From a virus (lineage: Duplodnaviria; Heunggongvirae; Uroviricota; Caudoviricetes), in IMG/VR virus record IMGVR_UViG_2534681835_000020: a DNA stretch of 14,562 nucleotides. One strand, written 5' to 3'. Below the pieces are notes generated by a model, which worked only from the letters and a program-made list of their open reading frames with translations, searched no databases and had not been told where the DNA came from. A program made the position numbers and the translations under genes. Of the stretch, positions 4,542-5,298 are shown piece by piece. The number at the start of each line of letters is the position of its first letter. Within the stretch, counting starts at the first letter, position 1.

Positions 4542-4763
4542 TCATTTTGTGACCAATGCGATAAGTAGCGGGATAAGCATTGATAAAATCAACAGGCCGA
4601 TGATCCACTTTTGATTTTCACTGGCCTTATCTCTATTTTCATCAATCTTATCCATAATTCGACGCTCCAAGCCGTGCATATCACCGCGAATGGCAATTAT
4701 CTCATTGCGAACATCCGAGAAGTGGTTGGCTTGATGTTCCATGTGTGGCGTTCTGCCTTTCAT
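4542..4763 (-). CDS. Small tail-anchored membrane protein (73 aa; polar/charged N-terminal region, single C-terminal transmembrane helix)
   Basis: ORF MKGRTPHMEHQANHFSDVRNEIIAIRGDMHGLERRIMDKIDENRDKASENQKWIIGLLILSMLIPLLIALVTK. ATG preceded by gtgagga 7-8 nt upstream. The architecture resembles XhlA-like or holin-like small membrane proteins (recall only). Confidence 0.5.
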   Translation of the reverse strand: MKGRTPHMEHQANHFSDVRNEIIAIRGDMHGLERRIMDKIDENRDKASENQKWIIGLLILSMLIPLLIALVTK

Positions 4764-4842
4764 GCCTGATCCTCACCCATCGTCACCACCTGCTGGTGTA
4801 TAAAGGTATTGGCCCAAACAGCTTTCCAATGGGCACTCATGT

Positions 4843-5298
4843 TTATACGCTGACCTTACAATCAATCACCGCTTTTAAATTTTCAGCATTGCTTCCCTGA
4901 CGCTTCCACGCGCTGTAAATATCTTTATCCCACGCTTTACCAGCTTTTGTTTGATAGCCTGCTTCATTGATCCGTTCAGCTATCACACGCCCATTATCAA
5001 ATCCCTGTTGGATGGTATCGGCAATGATCTTTATAACTGCCGTTTCGTTATATGGCTTTGGTGGGATGTTCGGCTTTCCGGCAATAAGCGACGCAGCGGC
5101 TTTTTCCATGCGCTCCACCAGCCCAAGCATTCGTGAATCAATAGACTTTTCCGGCTGTCCCAGCTTCATGCGAATCGCATCAACAAGCCAGGAGGTTTTA
5201 TCCCCTCCAGAAGCGAGAACAGACCGATTAAACTCATCCTGCAATTCAGATGGGATGCGGAACGCGATCAGATTAGATTTGCTCATTGCAAAGACCAT
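4843..5298 (-). CDS. Hypothetical protein with an N-terminal ribbon-helix-helix-like DNA-binding motif
   Basis: ORF MVFAMSKSNLIAFRIPSELQDEFNRSVLASGGDKTSWLVDAIRMKL... shows a beta-strand, helix, Gly-x-Asp/Ser/Thr turn, helix pattern typical of CopG/Arc-type folds. The start may be the second Met (MSKSN, 5286). It lies just upstream of 4542..4763 on the same strand. Confidence 0.55.
   Translation of the reverse strand: MVFAMSKSNLIAFRIPSELQDEFNRSVLASGGDKTSWLVDAIRMKLGQPEKSIDSRMLGLVERMEKAAASLIAGKPNIPPKPYNETAVIKIIADTIQQGFDNGRVIAERINEAGYQTKAGKAWDKDIYSAWKRQGSNAENLKAVIDCKVSV

What the first reader, a model, noticed from the sequence alone, without database searches (positions are those of the whole stretch)
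4542..5298. Candidate two-gene unit: ribbon-helix-helix-like protein followed by a 73-aa tail-anchored membrane protein
Both genes are on the minus strand, 80 bp apart. The first has a CopG/Arc-like N-terminus and sits directly next to palindromes and iterons, suggesting autoregulation. The second has a charged N-terminal region and a single C-terminal transmembrane helix, like small membrane-disrupting toxins and XhlA-like proteins. A DNA-binding regulator paired with a small membrane effector is the layout of several toxin-antitoxin and abortive-infection modules. I do not recognise this pair as a described system.
Basis: inference. Interest (0 to 1): 0.6.

Follow-up and report, generated by a model that had tools for sequence, protein, structure and literature searches.

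The report
Regulator plus swappable cargo in satellite island
The two genes are real, but they are not a fixed toxin-antitoxin pair: a conserved, probably self-repressing DNA-binding regulator of an E. coli phage-satellite island sits in front of a variable cargo slot, which here holds a small XhlA-like membrane protein borrowed from P22-like phages and in sister islands holds the AbiD defence gene.

Summary
Observation confirmed. Both ORFs exist on the minus strand, 79 nt apart, and both are under purifying selection. The 73-aa protein is one long helix ending in a C-terminal membrane anchor.

Interpretation partly supported. The window is a degraded EcCIMP1-like phage-inducible chromosomal island (PICI) at tRNA-Thr.
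- **Regulator.** The 147/151-aa protein belongs to a broad Enterobacterales family. It always carries a private palindrome, TATAACnnnGTTATA, overlapping an extended -10, which suggests autorepression.
- **Iterons.** The TGAACCAAC repeats are not its operators. They occur twice per intact island, also in islands without this gene, once directly 3' of the primase gene. That is the layout of the phage P4 ori/crr replication repeats.
- **Small gene.** It is a roughly 270-bp cassette shared with P22-like prophages. It is a short form of a rare XhlA-like family whose usual partner is a Zn-ribbon protein, not this regulator.
- **Co-occurrence.** Among 5426 E. coli genomes, 361 carry the regulator and about 166 carry the pair. 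At least 73 carry AbiD in the same slot.

The region is best read as a satellite accessory and defence hotspot. The small protein's function is untested; exclusion or defence is my leading guess. A two-component toxin-antitoxin reading is unlikely.

The parts
4843..5286 (-). Regulator gene 'RHH151' (147 aa from the conserved MSKS start; the longest ORF extends to 5298). It has a probable N-terminal ribbon-helix-helix domain (residues ~5-45), a linker helix (~51-68), and a C-terminal three-helix HTH-like domain (~75-147).
5317..5346 (-). Candidate operator and promoter of RHH151. Two overlapping palindromes: TATAAC-nnn-GTTATA (5332-5346) and TACAGT-ggtat-ACTGTA (5317-5333). They overlap an extended -10, TGgTATACT (5320-5328).
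   Evidence: The arms are conserved and the spacer varies in E. coli, Salmonella, Klebsiella and Serratia, although the flanks are unalignable (A5). There is exactly one copy in each of the 17 fetched loci that carry the gene, and none in the other 77. The -10 reading is from the sequence; the strict sigma-70 scan found nothing.
4764..4842 (-). 79-nt spacer between the two genes. Its last ~40 nt are the remnant of the Gly-rich N-terminal extension of the long-form gene (frame reads ...TPAGGDDG*GSG-M) and contain a GAGGA Shine-Dalgarno sequence.
   Evidence: Translation. DNA alignment with the P22-like prophage L010 (A3). No terminator found.
4542..4763 (-). 73-aa tail-anchored protein, the short form of an XhlA-like family: a charged helical N-terminal part, the motif ERRxxDKxDENQKW, and a C-terminal transmembrane helix ending in ...ALVTK.
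   Evidence: phrog_6324 E=1e-10. dN/dS 0.21-0.32. Present in 169 of 5426 complete E. coli genomes.
4523..4887 (.). Swappable cassette: the last ~11-15 codons of RHH151, the spacer and the small gene. In sister islands an AbiD (Abi_2) gene in convergent orientation replaces it.
   Evidence: blastn break-points against L095 and L096. AbiD identified by Pfam at 4e-52 and PADLOC at 3e-57. At least 73 genomes carry this variant.
5401..5530 (.). Iteron cluster: 3 x GTTGGTTCA at 21-nt spacing (5401, 5422, 5443) facing 4 x TGAACCAAC at 9-nt spacing (5495-5530). I read it as a replication-origin-type (P4 ori/crr-like) site of the island, and not as part of the two-gene unit.
   Evidence: The same cluster occurs twice in intact islands, the second copy directly 3' of the TOPRIM/DUF927 primase gene. 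It is also present in EcCIMP1, which has no RHH151.
3410..4021 (-). 203-aa multi-pass membrane protein in the same orientation, 520 nt downstream. It is a second cargo gene of the slot, and is replaced by a 131-aa membrane protein in other islands.
   Evidence: Weak phrog_7745 'SieA-like' hit, E=4e-4. No phage tblastn hit.
2948..3391 (+). 3' fragment of a P22-type gp16-like ejection (DNA transfer) gene, cut by the IS3 element. It marks the far edge of the cargo slot.
   Evidence: phrog_770 at 1e-36 and phrog_29117 at 5e-67. RefSeq calls it 'injection protein, partial'. Synteny with L015, L044 and L087.
5567..5848 (+). PerC-family regulator, divergent from RHH151 across the iterons. Its protein is identical to that of EcCIMP1.
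   Evidence: PF06069 at 4e-30. WP_000617443.1 is annotated in both genomes. Reported to repress LEE1 in PMC11773190.

Best explanation
The region is the accessory-gene slot at the far end (away from the integrase) of an EcCIMP1-like phage-inducible chromosomal island (PICI), a satellite of P22-like phages. In this window an IS3-associated deletion has degraded the island.

RHH151 is a backbone transcription factor of this island family. It probably binds as an RHH dimer or tetramer to its own palindromic operator, which overlaps an extended -10. That would hold its own promoter at a low steady level while the island is resident.

Transcription from that promoter most likely reads through the 79-nt spacer into whatever cargo lies downstream. 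Here the cargo is a 73-aa XhlA-like tail-anchored inner-membrane protein, followed further on by a 203-aa multi-pass membrane protein.

The small gene is a cassette acquired from the immI (mnt/arc/ant) region of P22-like prophages. It sits in the island slot that corresponds to the phage's mnt-to-gene-16 (sieA) position.

Its most likely role is an accessory membrane function directed at incoming or helper phage: superinfection exclusion or defence, acting at the inner membrane.

Shown here: gene reality, synteny, cassette boundaries, operator conservation, the distribution of the iterons, and the alternation with AbiD.

Inferred: autorepression, co-transcription, membrane topology, and the anti-phage role.
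For: **Island identity.** The window is 100% identical to the E. coli O111:H8 thrW island. Its PerC, 61-aa and PRiA4 proteins carry the same accessions as in E. coli MP1 EcCIMP1, and the 119-aa protein is 99% identical. PMC11773190 shows EcCIMP1 to be a PICI mobilised by the P22-like phage Kapi1.

**Conserved order.** The order PerC | iterons | RHH151 > small > membrane protein | gp16-like < gp20 < gp7 < ... primase holds at two integration sites.

**Operator.** One palindrome copy occurs in each of the 17 RHH151-bearing loci and in none of the other 77. Arms are conserved and the spacer is free across four genera.

**Iterons.** They are duplicated next to the primase gene and are present without RHH151.

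**Small gene as a cassette.** Homology to the P22-like prophage L010 runs only from ~40 nt upstream of the ATG to the stop codon. In those prophages the gene lies between mnt and gene 16.

**Slot variability.** RHH151 occurs in 361 genomes, the small gene in 169, and the pair in about 166. AbiD fills the slot in at least 73. EcCIMP1 itself has alpA_1 plus a 232-aa gene there.

**Precedent.** PICIs are reported to carry immune genes at their 5' or 3' ends (PMC11364771, section 6).

**Family traits.** The small protein family is XhlA-like. In phages it sits at moron positions, next to immI or between the tail chaperones and the tape measure gene, and not in lysis cassettes.
Against: No experiment bears on either protein.
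- The RHH fold rests on a weak profile match. Pfam finds nothing, and AlphaFold as a monomer gives low confidence for residues 1-70.
- No promoter passed the strict sigma-70 scan. Co-transcription is inferred only from the absence of a terminator.
- EcCIMP1 adds to superinfection immunity although it lacks these genes (PMC11773190). That phenotype therefore cannot be credited to them.
- Some E. coli copies of the small gene are frameshifted (P0005, P0017, P0144), so it is dispensable.
- 'Defence' rests on guilt by association. PADLOC has no match.
Confidence: 0.5

Rival explanations
1. Toxin-antitoxin or abortive-infection pair. The 73-aa membrane protein is a toxin that depolarises the membrane. 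RHH151 is its antitoxin and transcriptional autorepressor.
For: The layout is RHH gene first and small membrane protein second, 79 nt apart, with a palindromic operator. The pair is adjacent in about 166 E. coli genomes. The slot holds an Abi gene in sister islands.
Against: The partnership is not conserved in either direction. RHH151 is under strong constraint along its whole length, including an HTH-like C-terminal domain, in genera that lack the small gene. The cassette junction lies inside the 3' end of RHH151, so the small gene arrived as an insertion. There is no PADLOC, Pfam or NCBIfam toxin-antitoxin match. Stand-alone short forms exist in phages next to antirepressor genes, without any cognate RHH151.
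Confidence: 0.1
2. Lysis accessory. Like Bacillus PBSX XhlA, which is needed together with the holin XhlB and the endolysin, the small protein modulates holin function or lysis timing of the helper phage or the satellite.
For: Weak homology to XhlA PF10779 (17 of 20 members, best E=1e-5), phrog_689 'holin' (18 of 20) and phrog_1193 'hemolysin' (17 of 20). XhlA is described as a membrane protein acting with XhlB, and all three genes are required for lysis (PMC5589764).
Against: The gene was never next to a holin, endolysin or spanin in the loci I inspected. It sits next to immI regulators, or between tail chaperone and tape measure genes, or in the PICI slot. It lacks the charged C-terminal tail typical of holins. 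All matches are below curated thresholds. In Mannheimia lambdoid phages an XhlA-domain protein likewise lies beside cI and not in the lysis module (PMC4553209).
Confidence: 0.15
3. RHH151 is mainly a replication, copy-number or partition factor of the island. It would act at or beside the adjacent iteron cluster, like CopG or ParG/omega-type RHH proteins. The small gene would be an unrelated hitch-hiker with little or no function here.
For: RHH151 lies about 60-130 nt from iteron cluster 1 in E. coli, Salmonella and Serratia. It has two putative DNA-binding domains. Frameshifted copies of the small gene exist. The window copy is an N-terminally truncated derivative of the long form.
Against: The iterons persist unchanged in EcCIMP1 without RHH151. 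The RHH151-linked palindrome has a different sequence from the iterons and occurs only once per island. No ParA-like gene is nearby. The small gene has dN/dS 0.2-0.3 and in-frame indels. Short forms recur independently in 18 viral loci.
Confidence: 0.15

Closest known systems
EcCIMP1, a phage-inducible chromosomal island of E. coli MP1 (Pick, Stadel and Raivio, ISME J 2025, PMC11773190)
   Same: Same integration site (tRNA-Thr after proA). The PerC, 61-aa and PRiA4_ORF3 proteins are identical and the 119-aa protein nearly so. It shares the same iteron clusters, the same 430-bp backbone spacer, and P22-type ejection genes flanking the slot.
   Different: EcCIMP1 has alpA_1 and a 232-aa gene in the slot in place of RHH151, the small gene and the 203-aa gene. 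The window copy has lost alpA, the antirepressor gene, the primase gene and most ejection genes to an IS3-associated deletion, so it is a remnant.
Phage P22 immI region (mnt, arc, ant, with sieA between mnt and gene 16); established knowledge
   Same: An RHH repressor gene faces a divergent regulator gene. It is followed, in the same orientation, by membrane-protein genes expressed in the lysogen, which converge on ejection gene 16. In P22-like E. coli prophages the small protein's closest relative sits exactly there, downstream of Mnt.
   Different: RHH151 is not a close Mnt homologue (hhalign probability 19%) and carries an extra HTH-like domain. PerC, not arc-ant, is the divergent partner. 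The element is a satellite, not a phage.
XhlA (PF10779) of Bacillus prophage PBSX
   Same: A small protein with a helical, coiled-coil-like N-terminal part and one C-terminal membrane helix. Weak but consistent profile similarity.
   Different: Scores are below Pfam's gathering threshold. The gene is not in a lysis cassette. The hosts are Gram-negative. Long forms are paired with a Zn-ribbon protein.
Defence hotspots of phage satellites (PICI 5'/3' ends and the pri-adjacent region; P4 hotspots), PMC11364771 and references therein
   Same: A variable slot at a fixed backbone position holds alternative cargo, including a recognised defence gene (AbiD).
   Different: I found no description of this slot in EcCIMP1-like islands, or of its RHH151 gatekeeper gene, in the two satellite papers I read. 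The small protein is in no defence catalogue that I searched.
Phage P4 ori/crr iterons bound by the alpha primase-helicase (established knowledge, recalled from memory)
   Same: Two clusters of short repeats lie several kb apart, one directly 3' of the primase gene.
   Different: The repeat sequence differs (TGAACCAAC against P4's TGTTCACC). Binding by the TOPRIM/DUF927 protein is untested.

Membership tests
Type II toxin-antitoxin module (RHH antitoxin plus toxin) | The two genes are inherited together as a unit across genomes | tested here: not met
   RHH151 occurs in 361 E. coli genomes and the small gene in 169. Salmonella, Klebsiella and Serratia homologues lack the small gene. Phage copies of the small gene lack RHH151.
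Type II toxin-antitoxin module (RHH antitoxin plus toxin) | Match to a known toxin, antitoxin or defence profile | tested here: not met
   No PADLOC hit for either protein. No Pfam hit. Only noise in NCBIfam.
Type II toxin-antitoxin module (RHH antitoxin plus toxin) | The toxin arrests growth and is neutralised by the antitoxin protein | not testable with these tools
   Needs expression experiments.
Ribbon-helix-helix (Arc/MetJ/CopG) DNA-binding superfamily | Significant profile match to an RHH family | tested here: inconclusive
   No Pfam RHH hit in any of 28 members at E up to 10. A PDB profile search found no RHH structure. hhalign against an Arc/Mnt alignment is in the correct register, P=0.0012, but probability is only 19%. 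phrog_30270 matches residues 5-49 at E=4e-4. One source names a homologue 'Arc-like DNA binding domain protein'.
Ribbon-helix-helix (Arc/MetJ/CopG) DNA-binding superfamily | N-terminal beta-strand, helix A, G-x-[ST/D] turn, helix B within about 45 residues | tested here: met
   The sequence is LIAFRIP / SELQDEFNRSVLAS / GGDKTS / WLVDAIRMKL, with F9, R10, P12, G27, D29 and W33 invariant. AlphaFold helices 13-25 and 32-42. The strand is not modelled in the monomer.
Ribbon-helix-helix (Arc/MetJ/CopG) DNA-binding superfamily | Cognate palindromic or repeated operator at its own promoter | tested here: met
   A conserved palindrome linked to the gene in 17 of 17 loci. Binding itself is untested.
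XhlA family (Pfam PF10779) | Score above Pfam's gathering threshold (34.7 bits) | tested here: not met
   The window's 73-aa protein has no hit at E up to 0.1. The L010 long form scores 15 bits. 17 of 20 relatives hit weakly, best E=1e-5.
XhlA family (Pfam PF10779) | Helical N-terminal part plus a single C-terminal membrane helix | tested here: met
   Sequence and AlphaFold model.
XhlA family (Pfam PF10779) | Located in a lysis cassette beside a holin and an endolysin | tested here: not met
   Contexts show immI, tail-gene or PICI-slot neighbours, and never lysis genes.
Holin | Charged hydrophilic C-terminal tail after the last membrane helix, and adjacency to an endolysin gene | tested here: not met
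   The protein ends ...IALVTK directly after the membrane helix. There is no endolysin gene nearby.
EcCIMP1-like phage-inducible chromosomal island | Integrase at tRNA-Thr (thrW), and shared backbone genes and repeats | tested here: met
EcCIMP1-like phage-inducible chromosomal island | alpA master regulator and primase/replication module present | tested here: not met
   Both are absent from the window. IS3 (1767-2982) abuts a truncated gp16-like gene. The element here is a remnant. Sister loci L015, L044 and L087 keep them.
EcCIMP1-like phage-inducible chromosomal island | Helper-dependent excision and packaging | not testable with these tools
   Shown only for EcCIMP1 itself (PMC11773190).
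SieA-type superinfection exclusion (applies to the neighbouring 203-aa protein) | Homology to P22 SieA | tested here: inconclusive
   phrog_7745 E=4.4e-4 over residues 90-185. No tblastn hit in 50,697 phage records.

The most novel reading that the evidence does not exclude
The XhlA-like tail-anchored protein is the effector of an undescribed, widely mobile anti-phage or superinfection-exclusion module. The long form would work with its overlapping Zn-ribbon partner and the short form alone. Temperate phages carry it as a moron next to immI or inside tail operons. EcCIMP1-like satellites carry it in a defence hotspot gated by the RHH151 repressor, where it is interchangeable with AbiD.
Probability: 0.25. 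Interest if true: 0.55.

Novelty: new member of a known kind. Interest (0 to 1): 0.35.

Why it matters
The work defines a previously unannotated variable cargo slot in a recently described and common family of E. coli phage satellites. About 7% of complete E. coli genomes carry the gatekeeper regulator.

It assigns the striking iterons to replication, not to gene regulation. It also separates a broadly conserved regulator and its operator from interchangeable cargo.

Two cheap experimental leads follow:
- A testable repressor-operator pair.
- A small uncharacterised membrane protein family, with a Zn-ribbon partner in phages, that sits where exclusion and defence genes usually sit.

The result also removes a false lead: this is not a dedicated two-gene toxin-antitoxin system.

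Tried and rejected
- **Family scans.** Pfam, NCBIfam and PADLOC scans of both proteins found nothing significant.
- **Sequenced phages.** tblastn of the 73-aa, 151-aa and 203-aa proteins against 50,697 phage records found no match. Only the long form from L028 found 7 phages.
- **Solved structures.** PDB sequence-profile searches with the full regulator family and with its N-terminal 50 residues found no RHH structure, only chance ribosomal L7Ae/L14 hits.
- **RNA families.** Rfam on 3300-6400 gave only a meaningless miRNA hit on the iteron palindrome.
- **Promoters and terminators.** The consensus scan found none in 4200-6200.
- **Accession search.** A literature search for the three RefSeq protein accessions found no papers.
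- **Tai immune systems of PICIs.** Considered and rejected: the paper does not describe them as membrane proteins (no mention of 'transmembrane') and their hotspot is elsewhere.
- **Iterons as RHH151 operators.** Considered and rejected because of their duplication next to the primase gene and their presence in EcCIMP1.
- **Small ORF as a dead fragment.** Considered and judged unlikely because of dN/dS, in-frame indels, and recurrent stand-alone short forms.
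Full report
**1. What is at the coordinates**

Two minus-strand ORFs are present: 4843-5298 (151 aa) and 4542-4763 (73 aa). RefSeq annotates both as hypothetical proteins in E. coli O111:H8 strain 8E, to which the window is 100% identical. The conserved start of the first gene is at 5286 (MSKSNL..., 147 aa), as shown by homologues in other genera. The gap between the genes is 79 nt. No terminator-like site was found in 4200-6200.

Both genes evolve as coding sequence.
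- The larger gene has dN/dS of 0.06-0.15 between genera.
- The small gene has dN/dS of 0.21-0.32 between variants, which also differ by in-frame indels.

**2. Where the window comes from**

The window is the tRNA-Thr (thrW) island downstream of proA. It contains, in order:
- a P4-type integrase;
- an IS3 element;
- the 3' fragment of a P22-type ejection (DNA transfer) gene;
- a 203-aa membrane protein;
- the two genes of the finding;
- an iteron cluster;
- PerC, a 61-aa gene, a PRiA4_ORF3 gene and a 119-aa gene;
- then an unrelated CP4-like block: HNH endonuclease, Dcm, CbtA/YeeU pseudogenes, RadC-like protein, antirestriction protein and DUF932.

The PerC, 61-aa and PRiA4 proteins have the same accessions as in E. 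coli MP1 at the same chromosomal site, and the 119-aa protein is 99% identical. That MP1 element is EcCIMP1, a phage-inducible chromosomal island (PICI) shown experimentally to be excised and packaged by the P22-like phage Kapi1 (PMC11773190).

The window copy lacks alpA, the antirepressor gene, the primase gene and most ejection genes. It is therefore a degraded relative.

**3. The regulator (RHH151)**

Its family is broad: more than 354 clusters at 90% identity in Escherichia, Salmonella, Klebsiella, Enterobacter, Serratia, Pantoea, Erwinia and Pectobacterium. It is also tightly conserved, with 58 invariant columns in a 28-sequence alignment.

*N-terminal domain.* Residues ~5-45 show the spacing of a ribbon-helix-helix (RHH) domain. 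They align in register with Arc and Mnt sequences taken from P22-like prophages and phage SPN3UB (hhalign P=0.0012, probability 19%). However, no Pfam RHH model and no PDB sequence matches. The monomer AlphaFold model is of low confidence in this part. I call the RHH fold probable.

**4. The operator**

Aligning the DNA upstream of the gene from E. coli (two integration sites), Salmonella, Klebsiella and Serratia shows unalignable flanks. One block stands out: GTATAAC-nnn-GTTATAC-aGTgGTAtACTGTATG.
- The arms TATAAC and GTTATA are invariant, while the 3-nt spacer varies (AGT, GCT, AGC, ACT).
- A second palindrome, TACAGT...ACTGTA, overlaps the first.
- The block contains TGgTATACT, which reads as an extended -10.

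The pattern TATAACNNNGTTATA occurs exactly once in each of the 17 fetched loci that encode the protein. It occurs in none of the other 77. In the window it lies at 5332-5346. This is the signature of a cognate operator at the gene's own promoter, and it supports autoregulation. Binding itself remains untested.

**5. The iterons are something else**

The 9-mer TGAACCAAC occurs as 3-4 tandem copies at 9-nt spacing, facing 3 inverted copies at 21-nt spacing. In intact islands (EcCIMP1 L092, E. coli L015, Salmonella L002) this composite occurs twice, 6.7-8.5 kb apart.
- One copy lies beside the PerC/RHH151 region.
- The other lies directly 3' of the TOPRIM/DUF927 primase gene.
- EcCIMP1 has both copies although it lacks RHH151.

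From memory, this is the arrangement of the ori and crr repeats of satellite phage P4, which its alpha primase-helicase binds. I therefore read the iterons as replication-origin-type sites of the island. In the window they are an orphan copy, because the primase gene is gone.

**6. The small protein**

The word-indexed search found only 23 clusters, essentially all E. coli. An exhaustive profile search of 1.8 billion representatives found 31. Most relatives are 100-130 aa long. Their architecture is:
- a variable N-terminal part;
- a Gly-rich linker;
- a usually conserved Met;
- a helical segment and the motif ERRxxDKxDENQKW;
- a C-terminal membrane helix ending ...ALVTK.

AlphaFold models the 73-aa protein as one helix, residues 6-72, pLDDT 80.

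Matches to known families are weak but consistent:

| Family | Members matching (of 20) | Best E-value |
|---|---|---|
| Pfam XhlA PF10779 | 17 | 1e-5, below the curated cut-off |
| phrog_6324 (unknown function) | 20 | 4.5e-34 |
| phrog_689 'holin' | 18 | 2.1e-7 |
| phrog_1193 'hemolysin' | 17 | 1.9e-5 |

Membership of the family fails its threshold.

**7. Where the small gene really belongs**

In bona fide P22-like E. coli prophages, its 78%-identical relative lies in the immI region. The order there is: tailspike < Ant < Arc | Mnt > 123-aa > small > 75-aa | gp16 < gp20 < gp7.

Across 64 IMG/VR viral loci that could be evaluated:
- 46 carry a long form (100-116 aa). Each is immediately preceded by a ~120-aa CxxC...CxxC Zn-ribbon gene, which overlaps it in all but one locus.
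- 18 carry a short form (72-79 aa). None has that partner. Most follow genes resembling antirepressors (Ant, Bro-N types).

In siphoviruses such as Salmonella phage SPN3UB and Klebsiella phage ST101-KPC2phi6.1, the Zn-ribbon/small pair sits at moron positions. It lies after arc-ant, or between the tail chaperone and tape measure genes. It was never beside lysis genes.

DNA homology between the window and the P22-like prophage runs only from about 40 nt upstream of the ATG to the stop codon. The upstream frame in the window reads ...TPAGGDDG*GSG-M, which is the decayed Gly-rich linker. The island copy is thus a short form derived from a long-form phage gene, captured as a cassette of about 270 bp.

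**8. Co-occurrence**

Among 5426 complete E. coli genomes:

| Feature | Genomes |
|---|---|
| RHH151 gene plus operator | 361 |
| Small gene | 169 |
| Both adjacent | about 166 |

In Salmonella, Klebsiella and Serratia islands the gene after RHH151 is a convergent 63-aa gene or other genes, never the small gene.

In many other E. coli islands, homology to the window stops 34-46 nt inside the 3' end of RHH151 and resumes at about 4522. The intervening segment is a convergent gene that is unambiguously AbiD/Abi_2 (Pfam 4e-52, PADLOC 3e-57). At least 73 genomes carry one AbiD variant in this position.

EcCIMP1 itself has alpA_1 and a 232-aa gene in the slot. The gene beyond the spacer also varies, being either a 203-aa or a 131-aa membrane protein.

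The region between RHH151 and the gp16-like gene is therefore a variable cargo slot, and one of its alternative fillings is a recognised defence gene. PICIs are already reported to carry immune genes at their ends (PMC11364771).

**9. Mechanism proposed**

- RHH151 is a backbone regulator that represses its own promoter through the palindrome (inferred).
- Its transcript reads into the cargo (inferred from orientation, the 79-nt gap and the absence of a terminator).
- The cargo here is a tail-anchored inner-membrane helix protein, followed by a multi-pass membrane protein.
- This position is syntenic with the mnt-to-gene-16 (sieA) slot of P22-like phages, and is interchangeable with AbiD.
- The most likely role is a membrane-level accessory function against incoming or helper phage (inferred, confidence about 0.3 for that step).

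A classical toxin-antitoxin partnership is unlikely, because neither gene depends on the other for its distribution. A role in lysis, as for XhlA, remains a minority possibility. It also remains possible that RHH151 acts in replication control beside the iterons.

**10. Limits**

- Nothing here is experimental.
- The RHH fold, co-transcription, topology and function are inferences.
- The superinfection immunity reported for EcCIMP1 cannot be credited to these genes, because EcCIMP1 lacks them.
- Some natural copies of the small gene are frameshifted.

**11. Verdict**

The unit is not a novel two-component system. It is a conserved satellite regulator with its operator, sitting in front of a swappable cargo cassette, inside a known type of element.

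The open and moderately interesting part is the uncharacterised XhlA-like protein family, with or without its Zn-ribbon partner, and the definition of this hotspot.

Noticed in passing
window 5401-5530; L092 10736-10856 and 19276-19396; L002 7690-7810 and 14388-14498; L015 7243-7363 and 14258-14368: The TGAACCAAC iteron composite (tandem copies at 9-nt spacing facing inverted copies at 21-nt spacing) occurs twice per intact island. The second copy lies directly 3' of the TOPRIM/DUF927 primase gene, like the ori/crr pair of phage P4. The window keeps only one copy and has no primase gene.
   Followed up: partly
window 4207-4223, 4492-4508, 5891-5907 (all minus strand): A 17-nt motif, GCGTACTKGTCKCRAAA, occurs three times where 0.01 is expected. 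Its 11-nt core is found only in PICI-type loci, 16 of the 96 fetched. Two copies flank the backbone spacer after the small gene, and one lies just after PerC. Its role is unknown.
   Followed up: partly
window 4094-4522: A ~430-bp stretch with no annotated gene, between the small gene and the 203-aa gene, is 95-99% identical in EcCIMP1 (L092 12099-12530) and L096 and lies within a segment 95% identical in L015. Its substitutions show no codon periodicity. It is conserved backbone of unknown function, perhaps a regulatory or packaging-related site.
   Followed up: partly
L010 7517-8234; L028 5565-6216; L093 (Salmonella phage SPN3UB gp24-gp25) 4607-5276: A conserved, overlapping two-gene moron cassette: a ~120-aa CxxC...CxxC Zn-ribbon protein followed by the long form of the XhlA-like tail-anchored protein. 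It is found in 46 of 64 viral loci. The short form never has the Zn-ribbon partner. No function or defence-catalogue entry was found.
   Followed up: partly
L095 5004-5966; L096 4964-5941: In sister E. coli islands, an AbiD (Abi_2) abortive-infection gene in convergent orientation replaces the small-gene cassette directly after RHH151. At least 73 complete genomes carry it.
   Followed up: yes
L092 13481-18649; L015 9099-13631; window 2948-3391: EcCIMP1-like satellites carry their own P22-type ejection protein genes (gp7-like, gp20/Inj_translocase, gp16-like or lytic transglycosylase, DUF2824). This is unusual cargo for a satellite. In the window only the last 147 codons of the gp16-like gene survive, next to IS3.
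   Followed up: no
window 6146-6331 and 6987-7346; L002 8480-8671 and 7223-7612: The 61-aa protein (motif ...APAYQWKKP) and the 119-aa protein of the window are also island backbone genes. They are conserved in Salmonella and Klebsiella islands, but there they are arranged differently around RHH151.
   Followed up: partly
window 7890-9597: An HNH endonuclease gene and a convergent, slightly overlapping Dcm-type cytosine methyltransferase gene lie just beyond the PICI remnant. Downstream are frameshifted CbtA/YeeU toxin-antitoxin pseudogenes. This may be a restriction-modification-like pair. I did not examine it.
   Followed up: no
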